Of a stretch of 64,000 nucleotides of DNA, positions 1-5,498 are shown one piece after another (positions within the stretch are counted from its first letter, which is position 1; the number at the start of each line of letters is the position of its first letter). Position numbers and translations under genes: made by a program. A model generated the notes under the pieces. It made no database searches. It saw nothing but the letters and a program-made list of their open reading frames with translations, and was not told where the DNA came from. The DNA is taken from assembly GCA_023898525.1 (NCBI GenBank), contig CP060227.1:85079-149078 (forward strand), given 5' to 3'. Source of the stretch: Candidatus Nomurabacteria bacterium. GTDB lineage: Bacteria > Patescibacteriota > Minisyncoccia > Phycocordibacterales > UBA918.

Positions 1-413
1 CGGACGTTCATCATCTCCGCATAGGCAGTGAACTTGCCGATCTCACGGCGCGTATCCATGGCGTACGGCTCAGGGCCGGGGTGGGGACGCTTGGTGCTCT
101 CCAGACCCAGCCAGAAGATGACGCAACCAGGGACGTTCGGTTCGAGTCCAGCCTGCTTCAGGTAGTGGCGTTCCCACACGAGCTGACGGTTGTCGGCTTG
201 CGAAAAAGGTTGGTGGAAGTCCTTGGTCAGCGGATGGGACGCATCCCACCGGGATGGACATGCGACAAGCGCCGACGGCTCACGTTGCAGTAGCTGCTTG
301 GCCATGAACGCTTGCCAGTCACCGCCACCACGGATCGGCCCCGCCAAGAAAAACAAGGGGGAATCGACAGTGGGCGTGAGCGGTACGATTTGTTTCGGTA
401 TGTAGATAGGCAT
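1..413 (-). CDS. Partial CDS: the N-terminal 137 codons are in the window and the 3' end runs off the left edge. Likely DNPH1/Rcl-like 2'-deoxynucleoside 5'-phosphate N-hydrolase or nucleoside 2-deoxyribosyltransferase-like protein.
   Basis: I translated the minus strand by hand: MPIYIPKQIVPLTPTVDSPLFFLAGPIRGGGDWQAF...VIFWLGLESTK..., with no stop codon before position 1. The block FFLAGPIRGGGDW resembles the YFCGSIRGG motif of DNPH1/NDT-like enzymes. A strong SD (AGGAGG, 5 nt) precedes the ATG at 413. GC is ~60% against ~40% for the surroundings. Confidence 0.4.
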   Translation of the reverse strand, partial: MPIYIPKQIVPLTPTVDSPLFFLAGPIRGGGDWQAFMAKQLLQREPSALVACPSRWDASHPLTKDFHQPFSQADNRQLVWERHYLKQAGLEPNVPGCVIFWLGLESTKRPHPGPEPYAMDTRREIGKFTAYAEMMNV

Positions 414-513
414 TTCGCCCTCCTGCTGAAAGGTTCAAGTAGACGGAGAACTTATAGGGTTCAACCCAGAAGCTGACCAAACAATATAATGAAAATGTTG
501 GTTTGTAAAGACT

Positions 514-1665
514 TCAATTTTCCTCCACATTTTCAACGATGAACTTTGCTCTGTTATATAGTTCATCAAAAGTGACAATGTCTACTCCATGGATACTTTT
601 CCTGAATCGTTGGAATGTCTCACGTTTGCTTCTACTGTCAAGCAGGGTTTCCAGCTTTCCGATAACGATGATTCCTTTTGGTTGTATAGTGAACACGTTT
701 TGAGCCTCAAACCTATCTCTATTGTCTGGTTGCTCAGACCCTTGTTTGTCCCATGTGTGAATGTTTGCTTCAATTTGAGAAAGCGCATCAGTCAAATCTT
801 TTGCTAAACTCCAGGCACCATTTCTGATTTCTTGTGATCCTTGAAGGAGAGAGGTGTCTGGTGTCTTTATCTCAACCAAAACAGTAAAGCTCATATCTCC
901 ATCAGTAGCTGTCAAATAATCTCCTCTTTCTCCTCCCTTACCGTCCACCTTCACTCCACCATAGTGTGGCTGTGACTGCTCTTGCCTCAATATTTGGTAA
1001 TTTAAGCCATATCCAAAAATCCACTTATTTTCTTCAAAAAAATTTTGCCACCATGCTTCATCTGAAGCATGGTTTATAAGTCCATTTTCAAACTCTTTTA
1101 ACTTTTCACGTCTCTTTAGAAGATTATTTATGTCACTCTGCGTTAAAACTATTCCTTCCGCTGAAGAAAGTTGTTTGATAATATTTCTCACACTCGATGC
1201 GTCTCGTCCCTTCAAAGCATTCACAATCTCGCTCTCACTTTGAGACATTAATGAAAAACTCTCCTCTGGAATTTCAATGTTACGGATTGATCGTAAAAAA
1301 GAAATTAGCTTCCAAAACTCCTCATGACAATCGTTGAGATTTACACTGCCTCTGATTTTATGAACTTCAACCTCTGTCGTTTCTTTTTCTAGAATCTTGT
1401 TCAGAGCCTTGTCTCTAACGGACAAGGCAAGTCTTGGAGTAAACTTTTCACCCTTATTGATAAGCGTAACTTGGCAAATGATATTACGCTTGTCCTTCTC
1501 TTTGAGAACAAACTGCTTTATGAGCCTACGGTCTTTAGAGTGATAAAAGTAGTAGAAATTGTTGATGGGAGTCGAATTGATCTGTAAGTCACTAAAACTA
1601 TCTTTGCCAATAACAAAGTTTTCATTCTTTCCAATAGCATCTTTTAACAATTCCGACCATTTCAT
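514..1665 (-). CDS. Candidate Shedu-like (DUF4263) PD-(D/E)xK nuclease, 383 aa.
   Basis: A long ORF ends at a TGA stop. The C-terminal block EAWWQNFFEENKWIFGYG...GDYLTATDGDMSFTVLVEIKTPDTSLLQGSQ fits a PD-(D/E)xK core (D..D..ExK followed by Q). Architecture is a variable ~230-aa N-terminal domain plus a C-terminal nuclease, as in Shedu SduA. It sits 2 nt downstream of the HTH gene on the same strand. Confidence 0.5.
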   Translation of the reverse strand: MKWSELLKDAIGKNENFVIGKDSFSDLQINSTPINNFYYFYHSKDRRLIKQFVLKEKDKRNIICQVTLINKGEKFTPRLALSVRDKALNKILEKETTEVEVHKIRGSVNLNDCHEEFWKLISFLRSIRNIEIPEESFSLMSQSESEIVNALKGRDASSVRNIIKQLSSAEGIVLTQSDINNLLKRREKLKEFENGLINHASDEAWWQNFFEENKWIFGYGLNYQILRQEQSQPHYGGVKVDGKGGERGDYLTATDGDMSFTVLVEIKTPDTSLLQGSQEIRNGAWSLAKDLTDALSQIEANIHTWDKQGSEQPDNRDRFEAQNVFTIQPKGIIVIGKLETLLDSRSKRETFQRFRKSIHGVDIVTFDELYNRAKFIVENVEEN

Positions 1666-1667
1666 AG

Positions 1668-1904
1668 TTATTTCTGCAAAAGATCATCAACCTTAACTTC
1701 GAGCGCGGTGGCAATTTTGGAGAGGGAGTTGATTGTAGGATTTTGGTTCGTGCCGTCCTCAATCTTAACAACGGTACTTAGTGACAAATCAGCCAGTCGG
1801 GCGACTTTTTCGAGAGAGTAACCCTTTTCGGCACGAATCTTCTTAACATTGCTAGCAATACTCATGTTTTGTTTGTGTAATTTGGTACATATAATATAAT
1901 ACAA
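1668..1904 (-). CDS. XRE-family helix-turn-helix transcriptional regulator.
   Basis: The sequence SIASNVKKIRAEKGYSLEKVARLADLSLSTVVKIEDG is a typical XRE HTH. A TTG start at 1904 is preceded by AAGGAG at 8 nt; an alternative ATG start lies at 1865. The stop overlaps the start region of the nuclease gene. Confidence 0.7.
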   Translation of the reverse strand: MYYIICTKLHKQNMSIASNVKKIRAEKGYSLEKVARLADLSLSTVVKIEDGTNQNPTINSLSKIATALEVKVDDLLQK

Positions 1905-2215
1905 AGTATGTACTCCTTGTATCTAAATAATACGGGATTTGAGATGTTTTGCAATTTTGTGGACTCATTGCGGCGATCCCAAAACAAAGAAATATCCTTT
2001 CCATTTTCTGTCGGCTCCTCCCCAGACCCCTCCACCGAAAATTTGATTGTAAGGATATTTCTTTGGTTTTGGGGGCCGAGCTGGCGAGGCCGCGAGGCGC
2101 GCACAGCATCACCACGTGCCCCAATGCGTACGTTGAGGTACAAAGCCACCACGCGCTCCGCGCGTTGTAGTTATGGTCTTTCCTCGAAATGGGTTCGAGC
2201 AAAGGCTAGTATGTC

Positions 2216-2347
2216 ATCACAAAACGAGACTTCGTCTCGACACAGCGAGCGCGGCGAAGCCGCGCGAGAAAAAGAAGAAGCCAAAACACCCTTTCGTGTG
2301 GCGGCGAATTGGGACGGGACGGGCGCGGCGAAGCGCGCGGATTTGTC
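2216..2347. repeat. Left copy of a 132-bp inverted repeat (GC ~62%).
   Basis: It is the reverse complement of 3765..3896 with one mismatch (GGCGGCGAATT versus GGCGACGAATT). It begins ATCACAAAACGAGACTTCGTCTC, that is, with the last 4 nt of the tRNA-Glu sequence. Confidence 0.9.
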
Positions 2348-2375
2348 CTTGTTTCGTATCTAAAATCACTATCGT

Positions 2376-3953
2376 ATGTCCAAACCAAAATATTTTCTTT
2401 ATGCTCGCAAAAGCACCGAAGACGATGACAAACAAGTCATGTCTATCGAGGCTCAGTTATTTGAGTTGAGAGAATTCGCACATAAAGAAAATCTTGAAAT
2501 CCTAGCGGAGTTTCAAGAGTCGAAAAGCGCAAAGACTCCCGGTCGTGAACAGTTTGCACAAATGATGACGCGCATTGAAGCAGGAGAAGCAAATGGCGTT
2601 TTGGCGTGGCATCCTGACCGTTTGGCGCGAAATAGTATTGATGGCGGGCGCGTCATCTACGCAGTAGACACACAAAAGGTCACGTCTTTGCGCTTTCCGA
2701 CATTTTGGTTTGAACCCACTCCACAGGGGTTGTTTATGTTGCAAGTGGCGTTCGGACAGTCGAAATACCATTCGGACAATCTGACGCAGAATGTGAAGCG
2801 AGGGATGCGCCAAAAAGTGCGGCGAGGCGAGTGGCTCACCAAAGCTCCATTTGGCTATGTGAATAATCCGCGTACGAGAAATATTGAACCGCATCCCGTG
2901 CATAGCAAGATCATCGTGCGGGCTTTTGAGGAGTACGCCAAAGGTGAGCATGGATTGGTTTCTCTCGCCGACTTTTTGTCGCTGCATGGAGTAACGACTG
3001 GCAAGGGAACGCCACTTGGCAAAGCTTCCATCAAACGCATACTGATTAATCGAGCATATCTCGGTTTTGTGAAGCATCATGATGAATGGTTTGAAGGAAG
3101 CTTTGCACCAATCATTTCCCCGAAATTGTTTGAAGCTGTCCAAAAGGTATTGGTACAGCGAGAACGTCCTCGTAAACGGAAAGCGAAGCATGATTTTCCG
3201 TTTGTGGGTATTTTTGAGTGCGGAGAGTGTGGGAGCATGTTCACTGCCCAGTGGGCTACCGGCAAGTGCGGAGGAAAGTATCGATATTATCGTTGCACCA
3301 AGAAGAAAGGCATATGCTCCCAAGGGTACGTCCGTGAGGACATTCTCGCTGACCAACTAAGGGAACAGCTTCAAACCATTTCGCTTTGCGATGCATACAC
3401 TGACTACATGCTCGGCAAAATCGAAGAATGGGAGCGCGAAGAAACTTCCGCATCGCAAAGTGGTGCGCAAAATCTTTCAGAAAATATAAAAGCCAGTGAG
3501 GCACGCATGGATAAACTGGTGGAGAGTTATTTGGATGGCGATATACCGAAAAGCATCTATTTGAAAAAGAAAGACGAGATCATGCGTGCCACCTTGTCTT
3601 TGAAGGAGAAAAAGAAAGATTTTGCACACCAAGGAAATAATTGGGTCGAACCCCTGCGTGAGTGGATTTTAGATACGAAACAAGCCACCTTTTTATCCTC
3701 CAGCGATGATTTCTCCGAAATCGCCGCTTTCGTCAAAAAAGTCGGAACGAACCCCTTGGTTCGTGACAAATCCGCGCGCTTCGCCGCGCCCGTCCCGTCC
3801 CAATTCGTCGCCACACGAAAGGGTGTTTTGGCTTCTTCTTTTTCTCGCGCGGCTTCGCCGCGCTCGCTGTGTCGAGACGAAGTCTCGTTTTGTGATCCCA
3901 CGGGGAATCGAACCCCGATTTGCAGGATGAAAACCTGCTGTCCTAACCATTAG
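2376..3953 (+). CDS. Large serine recombinase (resolvase/invertase N-terminal domain, recombinase domain and zinc ribbon).
   Basis: N-terminus YARKSTEDDDKQVMSIEAQ; DRLARN motif; zinc-ribbon CGECGSMF...RYYRC; C-terminal coiled-coil region. The last ~60 codons are encoded by the right inverted repeat and the tRNA-Glu gene, so the true C-terminus is uncertain. Confidence 0.75.
   Translation: MSKPKYFLYARKSTEDDDKQVMSIEAQLFELREFAHKENLEILAEFQESKSAKTPGREQFAQMMTRIEAGEANGVLAWHPDRLARNSIDGGRVIYAVDTQKVTSLRFPTFWFEPTPQGLFMLQVAFGQSKYHSDNLTQNVKRGMRQKVRRGEWLTKAPFGYVNNPRTRNIEPHPVHSKIIVRAFEEYAKGEHGLVSLADFLSLHGVTTGKGTPLGKASIKRILINRAYLGFVKHHDEWFEGSFAPIISPKLFEAVQKVLVQRERPRKRKAKHDFPFVGIFECGECGSMFTAQWATGKCGGKYRYYRCTKKKGICSQGYVREDILADQLREQLQTISLCDAYTDYMLGKIEEWEREETSASQSGAQNLSENIKASEARMDKLVESYLDGDIPKSIYLKKKDEIMRATLSLKEKKKDFAHQGNNWVEPLREWILDTKQATFLSSSDDFSEIAAFVKKVGTNPLVRDKSARFAAPVPSQFVATRKGVLASSFSRAASPRSLCRDEVSFCDPTGNRTPICRMKTCCPNH
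3765..3896. repeat. Right copy of the 132-bp inverted repeat. It overlaps the 3' end of the recombinase ORF and the last 4 nt of tRNA-Glu.
   Basis: Direct comparison with 2216..2347 (reverse complement, 131/132 identical). Confidence 0.9.
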
Positions 3954-3964
3954 ACGATGGGACC
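3893..3964 (-). tRNA. tRNA-Glu (anticodon UUC).
   Basis: Minus strand GGTCCCATCGTCTAATGGTTAGGACAGCAGGTTTTCATCCTGCAAATCGGGGTTCGATTCCCCGTGGGATCA folds as a cloverleaf: acceptor GGTCCCA/TGGGATC, T-loop TTCGATT, anticodon loop TTTTCAT. CCA is not encoded. Confidence 0.85.
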
Positions 3965-4107
3965 TAATATTTAATTGTTATTTCTTTTACCTCTTTTACT
4001 TAAATTAGATTGGTTTTCATTGATGAAAACTTTTCCTATCACCTCATAAATATCGGTGATTTCTTCCTGACGTCATAACCGGATAAAAAGCTAAACGCTT
4101 TTCATTA

Positions 4108-4131
4108 TCCTAACCATTAGACGATAGGGCC
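4108..4131 (-). repeat. Truncated copy of the tRNA-Glu 5' end (GGCCCTATCGTCTAATGGTTAGGA) inside a ~167-bp tandem unit.
   Basis: It matches positions 1-24 of the tRNA and then diverges, with no T-arm. The unit also carries the palindrome GGTTTTCATTGATGAAAACC (4012..4030). Confidence 0.7.
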
Positions 4132-4236
4132 ATATATTTAATTTTACCTCTTTAACTTCTGTCGCTCCAGTTGAATCGGTTTTCATTGATGAAAACTTTT
4201 CCTTCGAATTAAACAGTATCCCATACTGTTTAATTA

Positions 4237-4260
4237 TCCTAACCATTAGACGATAGGGCC
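4237..4260 (-). repeat. Second truncated tRNA-Glu 5' fragment, in a ~129-bp tandem unit.
   Basis: Same 24-nt fragment; the same palindrome GGTTTTCATTGATGAAAAC lies at 4178..4196. Confidence 0.7.
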
Positions 4261-4433
4261 AAAATTGCGTGGGGCGCAATTTTGGTTGAGTGCAATACCT
4301 AACCCGTTATGCCCCCCTTGGAATTCTACTAACAAAAGCAGGGAATCCACCTTGTGTATCTACTAACAAAACTGCTGTAGAAAACAAGTGGCATATTTAT
4401 AGCAGAAAATAGGGAAGATGTGAAGTCCTTGTA

Positions 4434-5498
4434 CGATCTCACCACCTTTGAGACTCTATCTCATAATGTTCTCTATAATACTCCATGGGCGACAAAAGAC
4501 CCAGTCCTTCATGCGGTCTCTCATGGTTATACCAATACAACCATTCATTCAGTGAATCATTGAAGTCAGGAATACTATCTCGAAGCAGGGATCGGTGATA
4601 AATAATGTGTTCTTCTTGAACGGTACGATTGAATCGCTCTATATAGGCATTCATCTTAGGACAACGTGGATAAGTGTGATAATGGTTGATGTTAAGAGTT
4701 AAACAAGCTTCGTGGAAGTATTTAGCGAATTCTGAACCATTATCAGTCTGTATCTCATCTATACTAAAAGGGGTATAGTGTATAAGTTGTTTTAGAAAGT
4801 CTCGAGCACTATTTGAAGAATGACTGGTATAAGTACGAGCGTAAGCAAACCGTCTTTCTATGTCTATGGCGGTGAGTATGTACCGTTTAGTGCCATCTAT
4901 GTGTCTCACGATAGTGTCTATCTCCAAACCTTGTTTTTGTGGTCTTCTTTGTTTTTTAACCTTGGTTTTTCTTTGTTCTTTGTGTGTACCACTCTTAGCG
5001 TACCAAGAGAGCTTAACTGGATTCGGTAGTCTACCTAGTTCTTTAAGATCACTGATACAGCGATTAACATAGGAAACTGACACCTTGAATCCTTCCTTCT
5101 TCAATAGCGGTACCAGCTTTTTCCCACCAATCCGTGGTCGCTTAGTACGCCAGTTGATAATAGCTTGCTCTAGTGGTGGTGATATCTGTCTCACTCTTCG
5201 TTTCTTAGGAGCAGTACTCTTGGGGTCTAGGGCTTGGATATTACCATTACTATCATTTAGTTCTTTTTGCCATCTAAATAAAGTTGGTCTAGATACGCCA
5301 AAAGCATCTTTGGTGGTATTAGTACCATGTTTTTGCCAAAACGTGAGTATTTTAACTCTTCTTTCGACCTCCTGTTTGTTTTTCATTGTCTGCCACTTTA
5401 GAGCACTATCAGCCGCTTTGGCAAACCCTCTGGTGTTCCTTAAAATGTTATGTATTCTCATTACTCCTTATTTAAGGAGTCTCATATGTATGTGAGAT
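4434..5498 (-). mobile_element. IS481-family insertion sequence (~1.07 kb) with imperfect ~22-bp terminal inverted repeats.
   Basis: Ends GATCTCACCACCTTTGAGACTC (4434..4455) and GAGTCTCATATGTATGTGAGAT (5477..5498) are inverted copies sharing ATCTCAC and TGAGACTC. They enclose a single DDE transposase ORF. Confidence 0.6.
4439..5461 (-). CDS. IS481-family DDE transposase (rve integrase core), 340 aa.
   Basis: N-terminal HTH region, then motifs DNGSEF, HYHTYPRCPKMNAYIERFNRTV and YNHERPHEGLG typical of the IS481/rve family. Confidence 0.8.
   Translation of the reverse strand: MRIHNILRNTRGFAKAADSALKWQTMKNKQEVERRVKILTFWQKHGTNTTKDAFGVSRPTLFRWQKELNDSNGNIQALDPKSTAPKKRRVRQISPPLEQAIINWRTKRPRIGGKKLVPLLKKEGFKVSVSYVNRCISDLKELGRLPNPVKLSWYAKSGTHKEQRKTKVKKQRRPQKQGLEIDTIVRHIDGTKRYILTAIDIERRFAYARTYTSHSSNSARDFLKQLIHYTPFSIDEIQTDNGSEFAKYFHEACLTLNINHYHTYPRCPKMNAYIERFNRTVQEEHIIYHRSLLRDSIPDFNDSLNEWLYWYNHERPHEGLGLLSPMEYYREHYEIESQRW

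What the first reader, a model, noticed from the sequence alone, without database searches (positions are those of the whole stretch)
514..1904. Two-gene HTH + candidate Shedu-like (DUF4263) PD-(D/E)xK nuclease cassette in a mobile island
An XRE-type HTH gene (1668..1904) sits 2 nt upstream of a 383-aa protein. Its C-terminus carries EAWWQNFFEENKWIFGYG...DYLTATDGDMSFTVLVEIKTPD...Q, the arrangement expected for a Shedu (SduA-like) PD-(D/E)xK nuclease, and its N-terminal domain is variable. The pair lies beside a serine recombinase, a tRNA integration site and an IS element, which is the usual setting for a single-gene defence system. This is the best candidate in the window for an anti-phage system.
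Basis: partly seen in the sequence, partly recalled or inferred. Interest (0 to 1): 0.65.

Follow-up and report, generated by a model that had tools for sequence, protein, structure and literature searches.

The report
Shedu nuclease carried by recombinase element
The 383-aa gene is a genuine but ordinary member of the known Shedu anti-phage nuclease family, and the small regulator gene in front of it belongs to a tRNA-targeting recombinase element that carries different cargo genes in other genomes.

Summary
ORF 514..1665(-) encodes a 383-aa SduA (Shedu) nuclease. It scores 110 bits on Pfam SduA_C (cutoff 27) and E=3e-139, full length, on PADLOC SduA. All five B. cereus catalytic residues are aligned and invariant. 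Every significant PDB fold hit is a Shedu structure. The exact protein is already in NCBI (USN87866.1, Candidatus Nomurabacteria), and more than 1,200 homologs exist.

An XRE HTH gene (1668..1904) ends 2 nt before sduA. It is not a Shedu-specific partner. Only 3 of 77 SduA-clade loci have it, and all three also carry a homolog of the window's large serine recombinase (LSR).

In 80 metagenomic loci of that LSR family, SduA is absent. A divergent HTH is present in 31 of 44 informative loci and leads varied cargo such as methyltransferases, nucleases and unknowns. So the HTH is element backbone and Shedu is swappable cargo.

Unexpectedly, the LSR gene is bracketed by 115-150-nt near-perfect inverted repeats in 65 of 80 loci. 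One arm starts in the last 4-9 nt of a tRNA gene, and nine tRNA species are used. Opposite cassette orientations occur in a few assemblies. I found no description of this architecture.

The Shedu itself is a new member of a known kind.

The parts
514..1665 (-). sduA, a 383-aa Shedu nuclease (NCBI USN87866.1). Approximate layout: N-terminal sensor domain aa 1-130 (1276-1665), helical linker aa 131-198 (1072-1275), PD-(D/E)xK nuclease aa 199-383 (517-1071). Catalytic codons: E203 (1057-1059), D249 (919-921), E265 (871-873), K267 (865-867), Q297 (775-777).
   Evidence: Motif numbering in B. cereus is from the paper read.
1668..1904 (-). XRE/Cro-C1-type HTH gene. It is 78 aa from TTG 1904, or more likely 65 aa from ATG 1865. 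The stop codon lies 2 nt before the sduA ATG.
   Evidence: Pfam HTH_3 E=2e-11. PADLOC capH 1e-11 and Control_protein 5e-9. Homolog alignment. Backbone association with the LSR element.
1885..1913 (.). Palindrome GTACATA-N15-TATGTAC. It overlaps a -10-like hexamer and the TTG start candidate, and is a candidate operator for the HTH (inferred).
   Evidence: (I7). Promoter-like hits are not above chance.
1905..2215 (.). Intergenic region between the HTH and the distal repeat arm. It contains a 27-nt-arm hairpin (1978-2004 / 2046-2072). Positions 2093-2215 are homologous to the cargo-bracketing repeat arm (IR2) of relative L084.
   Evidence: (fold z = -3.0).
2216..2367 (.). Distal arm of the inverted repeat bracketing the recombinase. 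2216-2347 pairs with 3765-3896 at 99%, and 2348-2367 pairs with 3665-3684 at 100%. Relative to the proximal copy it lacks 80 nt.
2376..3953 (+). Large serine recombinase/integrase, 525 aa. Its last ~20 codons run antisense into tRNA-Glu.
   Evidence: Pfam Resolvase + Recombinase + Zn_ribbon_recom. PHROG 95 integrase 5.5e-82. 64% identical over 516 aa to the L008 ortholog.
3765..3896 (.). Proximal repeat arm. It begins in the last 5 nt of tRNA-Glu. It carries the junction motif ...ACAAAACGAGACTTC... and the GC hairpin GCGCGGC-GAA-GCCGCGC, and it encodes recombinase aa 464-507 on the other strand.
3892..3964 (-). tRNA-Glu(ttc). Its 3' end is the attachment junction of the recombinase cassette.
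   Evidence: The same geometry with other tRNAs appears.
1..426 (-). 5' part of a 184-aa orphan gene (60% GC) directly downstream of sduA. It is followed, beyond the window edge, by a 153-aa Phage_30_3 gene. Both are possibly further cargo.

Best explanation
ORF 514..1665(-) encodes a Type-1 Shedu (SduA) immune nuclease with three parts: an N-terminal beta-rich sensor domain, a helical linker, and a C-terminal PD-(D/E)xK (DUF4263) nuclease.

By homology with the two solved systems, it most likely assembles as a homotetramer. In that model the nuclease is held inactive until the N-terminal domains detect a feature of invading DNA, either free ends or single-stranded termini. It then nicks or cuts that DNA using E203/D249/E265/K267/Q297.

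The gene is cargo of an integrative element built around a large serine recombinase that attaches at the 3' end of tRNA genes (tRNA-Glu here). The XRE HTH gene immediately upstream belongs to the element's backbone. It most likely acts as a controller-type (C-protein-like) autoregulator that sets transcription of itself and of the co-transcribed first cargo gene. This would keep a potentially self-toxic nuclease in check when the element enters a new cell.

Shown: family membership, the catalytic residues, the operon geometry, and the recombinase/HTH/tRNA association.
Inferred: oligomeric state, the signal sensed, the regulatory role of the HTH, and anti-phage activity in this host.
For: Family membership:
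- Pfam SduA_C 110.1 bits against a cutoff of 27, covering aa 201-370.
- PADLOC SduA PDLC00391 E=3.1e-139 over aa 2-379 of a 402-position model, plus 16 other SduA models.
- phmmer to B. cereus SduA 8TI8 E=7.6e-21. Query E203, D249, E265/K267 and Q297 align to the residues Gu et al. list as motifs I-IV (E204, D249, E264/K266, Q295). All are invariant in 25 homologs.
- Foldseek: the nine hits with E<=1e-3 are all Shedu structures (8TI8, 8TI9, 8PS4/5).

Defence context:
- Genes abutting clade members are mostly R-M components: Methylase_S 10, MTases, ResIII, AlwI among 45. This matches the published Shedu/R-M association.

The HTH is backbone:
- It abuts SduA in only 3 of 77 loci. Those three (L006, L008, L015) each have a close LSR homolog divergently upstream.
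- A divergent HTH lies next to the LSR in 31 of 44 metagenomic loci, and none of the 80 carries SduA.
- The gene coupled behind the HTH varies: N6_N4 MTase, T5orf172 nuclease, SDH protease, VWA protein, unknowns.
- HTHs in that set match PADLOC 'Control_protein' down to 3e-20.

Mobility:
- The LSR 3' end overlaps a tRNA in the window and in L008, L006, L024 and L046. It does so in 49 of 80 metagenomic loci, across nine tRNA species.
Against: - No experiment exists for this protein or its clade.
- The full-length AlphaFold model is mediocre (pLDDT 62).
- Promoter-like sites upstream of the HTH are no more frequent than in shuffles.
- The operator assignment rests on a single 7-nt palindrome.
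- The far boundary of the element was not found, so 'cargo of the element' rests on comparative linkage and not on defined ends.
Confidence: 0.8

Rival explanations
1. The HTH and SduA form an obligate two-component Shedu system in which the small DNA-binding protein is a physical partner of the nuclease, as KELA is for KELB in KELShedu.
For: The genes are 2 nt apart, and the adjacency (3-4 nt gaps) recurs in L006, L008 and L015. A two-gene Shedu with a 3-bp gap and a DNA-binding partner has been shown experimentally.
Against: 74 of 77 clade loci have no abutting HTH. The same HTH family precedes unrelated cargo in other LSR loci. KELA is a WYL-like SH3 barrel and not an XRE HTH.
Confidence: 0.08
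2. The pair works mainly as an addiction (toxin-antitoxin-like) module that stabilises the recombinase element. SduA is the toxic nuclease and the HTH is the antitoxin/repressor. Phage defence is secondary or absent.
For: The HTH gives weak sub-threshold matches to HipB/Y4mF/MqsA-type antitoxin models. Toxicity of Shedu expression reported by others is cited. The pair sits on a mobile element.
Against: Most clade members exist without any HTH, and often inside R-M operons. The antitoxin model hits are far below their cutoffs.
Confidence: 0.08
3. The gene is a decaying or non-defence nuclease retained by chance in a degraded island.
For: The neighbourhood shows decay: an IS transposase, tRNA fragments, and an internally deleted repeat arm.
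Against: The ORF is intact and all catalytic residues are present. Identity to many homologs is 63-87% along the whole length. Identical copies occur in two independent assemblies.
Confidence: 0.03

Closest known systems
Bacillus cereus B4264 Shedu/SduA (PDB 8TI8/8TI9; Gu et al., bioRxiv 10.1101/2023.08.10.552793)
   Same: Nearly the same length (383 vs 382 aa) and the same three-part layout. The nuclease domain aligns from aa ~163-183 to the C-terminus with all motif I-IV residues. It is the best fold match.
Escherichia coli SduA (PDB 8PS4/8PS5; Loeff et al., bioRxiv 10.1101/2023.08.10.552762)
   Same: A DUF4263 nuclease core. [quoted passage not shown]
KELShedu two-component system (PMC12577705)
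   Same: A small DNA-binding protein gene lies 2-3 bp upstream of a DUF4263 nuclease gene.
   Different: KELA is a WYL-like beta-barrel that binds the nuclease. Here the upstream gene is an XRE HTH shared with non-Shedu cargo.
Controller (C) proteins of restriction-modification systems
   Same: A ~65-80-aa HTH_3 protein encoded first in the operon and co-transcribed with a toxic effector on mobile DNA. PADLOC Control_protein hits reach 5e-9 for the window protein and 3e-20 in the family.
   Different: No R-M genes follow it in the window. C-box operators were not demonstrated, and only one palindrome was seen.
tRNA-targeting cargo elements such as tycheposons (bioRxiv 10.1101/2020.12.28.424599), and Hin/Gin-type invertible segments
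   Same: Attachment at tRNA genes with swappable cargo in small genomes. As in Hin, the recombinase gene lies between inverted repeats.
   Different: Tycheposons mostly use tyrosine recombinases, and no integrase-bracketing repeats are reported for them. Hin-type invertases are small serine recombinases with ~26-bp sites. Here the enzyme is a 525-aa large serine recombinase with 115-150-nt arms anchored in a tRNA end.

Membership tests
Shedu / SduA (DUF4263, PF14082) | C-terminal SduA_C/DUF4263 domain above the Pfam gathering score | tested here: met
   110.1 bits against a cutoff of 27, covering 2-159 of 159 profile positions.
Shedu / SduA (DUF4263, PF14082) | PD-(D/E)xK motifs I-IV (E, D, ExK, Q) present and aligned to a solved SduA | tested here: met
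   E203, D249, E265/K267 and Q297 align to B. cereus E204, D249, E264/K266 and Q295. All are invariant in 25 homologs.
Shedu / SduA (DUF4263, PF14082) | Match to defence-system HMMs used for annotation (PADLOC SduA) | tested here: met
   PDLC00391 E=3.1e-139 at full length, with 17 SduA models hit in total.
Shedu / SduA (DUF4263, PF14082) | Nuclease fold as in solved SduA structures | tested here: met
   The top nine Foldseek PDB hits are all Shedu (E 5e-11 to 1e-5), although the model's mean pLDDT is only 62.
Shedu / SduA (DUF4263, PF14082) | Homotetramer; protection against phage | not testable with these tools
   Requires biochemistry and plaque assays.
Type 1A Shedu (sPC4/Whirly N-terminal domain) | N-terminal domain with a beta-beta-beta-beta-alpha sPC4/Whirly fold | tested here: inconclusive
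KELShedu-type two-component Shedu | WYL-like KELA partner encoded immediately upstream | tested here: not met
   The upstream protein is HTH_3/XRE. KELA is an SH3-type WYL-like barrel.
R-M controller (C) protein-like regulators | Small HTH_3 protein leading the operon; palindromic C-box operators upstream | tested here: inconclusive
   Size, position and PADLOC Control_protein hits fit. Only one 7-nt palindrome with a 15-nt spacer was found, and binding was not tested.
Large serine recombinases (phage-type serine integrases) | Resolvase catalytic domain + Recombinase domain + zinc-ribbon domain | tested here: met
   PF00239 5e-23, PF07508 1e-11, PF13408 8e-11. PHROG 95 'integrase' 5.5e-82.
Hin/Gin-type DNA invertase switches | Small serine recombinase with a C-terminal HTH acting on ~26-34-bp inverted sites | tested here: not met
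   The enzyme is a 525-aa LSR and the arms are 115-150 nt. Only the 'gene between inverted repeats' layout is shared.

The most novel reading that the evidence does not exclude
The recombinase next to the Shedu cassette may define an undescribed class of modular mobile element, seen here mainly in Patescibacteria/CPR-like metagenomic contigs. Its core is a ~1.7-kb cassette holding only a large serine recombinase. The cassette is bounded by 115-150-nt near-identical inverted arms, each with a conserved junction motif and a GC hairpin. It docks at the last 4-9 nt of many different tRNA genes and can sit in either orientation. It is followed by one or more cargo units, each led by an XRE regulator and sometimes bracketed by their own 210-290-nt inverted arms. 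In this reading, Shedu is one interchangeable cargo, and flipping or re-docking of the cassettes could switch or shuffle defence genes.
Probability: 0.35. Interest if true: 0.65.

Novelty: new member of a known kind. Interest (0 to 1): 0.35.

Why it matters
The Shedu gene mainly adds a well-supported example from a Candidatus Nomurabacteria (CPR) genome of about 1.1 Mb. The papers I could search do not discuss Shedu in this group. It also shows that one dedicated N-terminal sensor-domain family, with 143 representative clusters among 1.84 billion proteins, is spread across many phyla.

The context is more useful. It separates what belongs to Shedu from what belongs to its vehicle: the upstream HTH is a vehicle gene. 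This is a caution against calling 'two-gene' defence systems from adjacency alone.

The vehicle is a tRNA-docking serine-recombinase cassette with long inverted arms and regulator-led, exchangeable cargo. If it is confirmed as active, it would help explain how very small, plasmid-poor genomes exchange defence genes. It could also supply compact serine integrases with natural, varied tRNA targets.

Tried and rejected
- NCBIfam has no model matching the nuclease.
- The Gu et al. supplement, which would give the N-terminal class by accession, is not held. The afdb50 fold library was unavailable.
- A displaced tRNA 3' fragment that would mark the far end of the element was not found in the window (plus 815 nt from L081), L008, L006, L024 or L046.
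- A partner for the intergenic region 1905-2215 (a candidate cargo-bracketing arm) was not found anywhere in the 64-kb window or the extension.
- The 525-aa recombinase product is not on record, so alternative assemblies of this locus could not be fetched.
- I first argued that the flipped pair L140/L145 could not be an assembly artefact because its arms were only 88% identical. Inspection showed the outer ~115 nt are identical, so I withdrew that argument.
- RNAalifold on 32 arms gave no consensus structure because the hairpins are out of register. A register-free count was used instead.
- Rfam finds nothing except the tRNA, even at E<=1.
- The downstream 184-aa gene has no Pfam, PHROG or PADLOC match.
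- KELA-type partnership was considered and rejected on fold grounds.

Full report
**1. The observation**

The window holds a 383-aa ORF at 514..1665(-). Directly upstream on the same strand is a 78-aa ORF at 1668..1904(-). Its TAA stop is separated from the downstream ATG by two bases.

The start of the small ORF is uncertain. TTG at 1904 is preceded by AAGGAG at an 8-nt spacing. Homologs, however, are 66-70 aa and begin about 8 residues before the conserved N-x-[KR]-x-x-R, which corresponds to ATG 1865 and a 65-aa product.

**2. Identity of the 383-aa protein**

- Pfam SduA_C (PF14082) matches aa 201-370 at 110 bits against a gathering score of 27.
- PADLOC SduA model PDLC00391 matches aa 2-379 against positions 2-401 of 402, at E=3.1e-139. 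Sixteen other SduA models also hit.
- NCBIfam has no model for it.
- Against the PDB, the only sequence hits are B. cereus Shedu entries 8TI8 and 8TI9/8TIA, at E=7.6e-21 and 2.1e-20.
- In that alignment the query's E203, D249, E265, K267 and Q297 sit opposite residues that are E204, D249, E264, K266 and Q295 in native numbering, allowing for a two-residue offset in the deposited chain. Gu et al. name these as motifs I-IV. The 8TI9 construct carries the E-to-A substitution at the ExK glutamate.
- All five residues are invariant in an alignment of 25 homologs.
- An AlphaFold model built from that alignment is only moderately confident (mean pLDDT 62, with nuclease-core segments at 75-87). Even so, the nine Foldseek PDB hits with E<=1e-3 are all Shedu structures from B. 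cereus and E. coli.

Membership of the Shedu family is therefore established by every test available here.

**3. How common it is**

The exact sequence is NCBI USN87866.1, 'DUF4263 domain-containing protein [Candidatus Nomurabacteria bacterium]', on a 1,087,875-bp contig. There are 1,236 homologs at E<=1e-5. The best 120 are all full length at 62-87% identity. Those with source names come from Parcubacteria-group lineages and Omnitrophota, and one is already named 'Shedu immune nuclease family protein'.

Species-representative genomes give 80 loci. They come from CPR lineages, Acidobacteriota, Nitrospirota, Proteobacteria, Bacteroidota and a Woesearchaeota bin.

The N-terminal domain is conserved within the clade. 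A profile of it finds only 143 representative clusters among 1.84 billion proteins. Nearly all hits are at the N-terminus of proteins no longer than ~440 aa, either ~365-440-aa full-length proteins or shorter fragments. It is thus one of the discrete Shedu sensor-domain families, not a domain shared with other systems.

**4. The HTH**

The protein is an XRE-type HTH (HTH_3 E=2e-11). Its best defence-library matches are CapH and R-M 'control protein' models.

To test linkage to Shedu, I looked for it in the 80 SduA loci, first with phmmer and then with a family profile. Only L006, L008 and L015 have it abutting sduA (gaps of 3-4 nt), out of 77 loci with enough upstream sequence.

In L013 and L031 the closest HTH homologs head a longer operon: HTH, a RadC-N-like gene, two N6/N4 methyltransferases, then SduA.

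In the other loci the abutting upstream gene is most often an R-M component. Among 45 such genes: Methylase_S 10, UPF0020 7, N6_N4_Mtase 6, N6_Mtase 4, MmeI_Mtase 4, ResIII 2, AlwI 1. This agrees with the 602 Shedu-in-R-M cases reported by Gu et al..

**5. What the HTH travels with**

The three HTH-SduA loci all carry a close homolog of the window's large serine recombinase (LSR) in the same divergent position:
- L008: 735 bits, 64% identity over 516 aa.
- L006: split into two ORFs.
- L015: cut by the contig end.

LSR homologs lie within 6 kb of SduA in 11 of the 80 loci.

In each resolvable case the LSR ORF runs antisense into the 3' end of a tRNA gene, but the tRNA differs: Glu in the window, Ala in L008, Ile in L006, Trp in L024, Asp in L046. 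HTH-SduA must therefore have moved together with the recombinase.

A metagenome scan with an LSR alignment returned 80 further loci at 59-89% identity. Among them:
- None carries SduA.
- 49 have a convergent tRNA at the LSR 3' end: Ser 19, Glu 17, Arg 5, Ile 2, Ala 2, and Phe, Gly, Val and Lys 1 each.
- 31 of the 44 loci with at least 1.3 kb on the LSR 5' side have a divergent XRE HTH within 1.3 kb.

The gene coupled behind that HTH (gaps of 1-31 nt, from the ORF maps) varies. It can be an N6/N4 methyltransferase, a T5orf172/GIY-YIG-like nuclease, an SDH-type protease, a VWA protein, a membrane protein, or one of several unknowns. The wider cargo includes a TdeIII restriction enzyme, type IIG and type III methyltransferases and ResIII.

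The HTH is therefore a backbone, cargo-leading gene of the recombinase element, and Shedu is one of many cargos. The published two-gene KELShedu system is not a homolog of this arrangement, because its small partner KELA is a WYL-like beta-barrel that binds the nuclease.

I infer a controller-type regulatory role for the HTH. This rests on its position, its model matches (Control_protein down to 3e-20 in the family) and a palindrome, GTACATA-N15-TATGTAC, at 1885-1913. It is an inference. Promoter-like matches are not enriched.

**6.

The LSR gene is bracketed by a 132-nt, 99% inverted repeat at 2216-2347 / 3765-3896, plus a further 20-nt match.

The proximal arm begins in the last 5 nt of tRNA-Glu and encodes LSR residues 464-507. 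The distal arm ends 8-28 nt before the LSR ATG and lacks 80 nt that encode residues 437-463.

The same geometry is found in L008 (117 nt, 99%) and L006 (116 nt, 97%), and in 65 of the 80 metagenomic loci. In 37 of 44 of those, the proximal arm overlaps the last 4-9 nt of the tRNA.

Arms are near-identical within a locus, although the window's arm does not align by blastn with those of L006, L008 or L015. Nucleotide homology between closely related loci repeatedly starts and stops at the outer ends of the arms.

The arms share three features:
- a junction-proximal motif (...ACAAAnnGAAACTTC...);
- a GC-rich hairpin at a fixed distance, with a perfect stem of >=7 bp in 21 of 32 arms against 1.7% of shuffles, and 22 different stem sequences;
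- the antisense of the conserved LSR tail.

RNAalifold gave no consensus on the MAFFT alignment.

In several relatives a second inverted repeat of 210-290 nt starts 5-8 nt inside the distal LSR arm and brackets the HTH plus cargo. The window's 2093-2215 is homologous to such an arm in L084, but no partner was found in the sequence available.

Five loci show the LSR in the opposite orientation relative to the tRNA or HTH: L085, L113, L144, L127 and L145. L140 and L145 have a 100%-identical cassette and a 99.6%-identical 3.6-kb tRNA-Gly/Arg flank joined to opposite ends. The outer ~115 nt of that element's arms are identical, so an arbitrary assembler path cannot be excluded. L085 lacks a second arm in the 203 nt of 5' flank its contig holds, so it is less exposed to that artefact. 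The strong bias, 49:2 on the tRNA side and 31:3 on the HTH side, suggests most orientation calls are real.

I found no description of such cassettes in the searchable literature. The nearest analogues are tycheposons and Hin-type invertible segments, and both differ in defining features.

**7. Other context**

Two independent Logan assemblies reproduce the HTH-sduA junction. They extend 815 nt past the window edge and show a 184-aa orphan gene (60% GC) and a Phage_30_3 gene downstream of sduA.

The sduA/HTH GC content (38-40%) is close to the window mean of 41%.

**8. Verdict**

The gene is an intact, typical Shedu nuclease of a populous clade, and the exact sequence is already in public databases under a DUF4263 label. 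It is a new member of a known kind, with modest interest.

The added value lies in the context. The HTH belongs to the vehicle. The vehicle is a tRNA-docking large-serine-recombinase cassette with long inverted arms and regulator-led exchangeable cargo. I could not find this architecture described, and it deserves its own follow-up.

Noticed in passing
window 2216-3896; also L006, L008 and L083-L162: The large serine recombinase gene is bracketed by 115-150-nt near-perfect inverted repeats. One arm starts in the last 4-9 nt of a tRNA gene. This holds in 65 of 80 related metagenomic loci across nine tRNA species. Homology between relatives breaks at the arms' outer ends.
   Followed up: yes
L140 vs L145; L085, L113, L144, L127: The recombinase cassette occurs in the opposite orientation relative to the tRNA or HTH flank in 5 of 80 loci. 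One pair is at the same tRNA-Gly/Arg site with a 100%-identical cassette. This could be real inversion or re-docking, or an assembler path choice through ~115-nt identical arms.
   Followed up: partly
L084, L087, L094, L103, L107, L116, L119, L123; window 2093-2215: A second inverted repeat of 210-290 nt abuts the distal recombinase arm (5-8 nt overlap) and brackets the HTH plus cargo genes. The window's intergenic region is homologous to one such arm, but its partner was not found.
   Followed up: partly
window 3765-3896 and 31 related arms (alignment A8): The arms carry a conserved junction motif (...ACAAAnnGAAACTTC...) and a GC-rich hairpin about 30-45 nt from the tRNA end. The hairpin's sequence varies (22 stem variants) but its pairing is kept: 21 of 32 arms have a >=7-bp perfect stem, against 1.7% of shuffles.
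   Followed up: partly
window 3941-3976, 4108-4143, 4237-4272 and 3971-4037 / 4137-4203: The 5' part of tRNA-Glu, together with its upstream region, is repeated two more times upstream of the intact tRNA at spacings of 167 and 129 nt. A similar 26-nt 5' fragment of tRNA-Trp occurs in L024. A 3'-end integration model does not explain this.
   Followed up: no
window 1-426(-) and L081 1587-2617: Directly downstream of sduA lie a 184-aa orphan gene at 60% GC, with no Pfam, PHROG or PADLOC hit, and a 153-aa Phage_30_3 (PF08010) gene at ~52% GC. The genome average is 41% GC, which points to recent foreign origin.
   Followed up: partly
window 2376-3953(+): The recombinase ORF has no stop codon before the tRNA gene and ends about 60 nt inside it on the opposite strand. 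The same is true in L008, L006, L024 and L046. The 525-aa product is not on record in the protein-to-contig index.
   Followed up: partly
window 4439-5461(-): An rve/HTH_32 DDE transposase (340 aa) of an IS element lies next to the tRNA-fragment repeats. Its ends and family were not examined.
   Followed up: no
L003 (DUGB01000073.1): A contig binned as a Candidatus Woesearchaeota archaeon carries a SduA 68% identical to the window protein, and an LSR homolog. This is either cross-domain transfer or a binning error.
   Followed up: no
window 1905-2215(-): The HTH-upstream intergenic region folds more stably than shuffles (z = -3.0), dominated by a 27-nt-arm hairpin at 1978-2004 / 2046-2072. No Rfam family matches.
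   Followed up: partly
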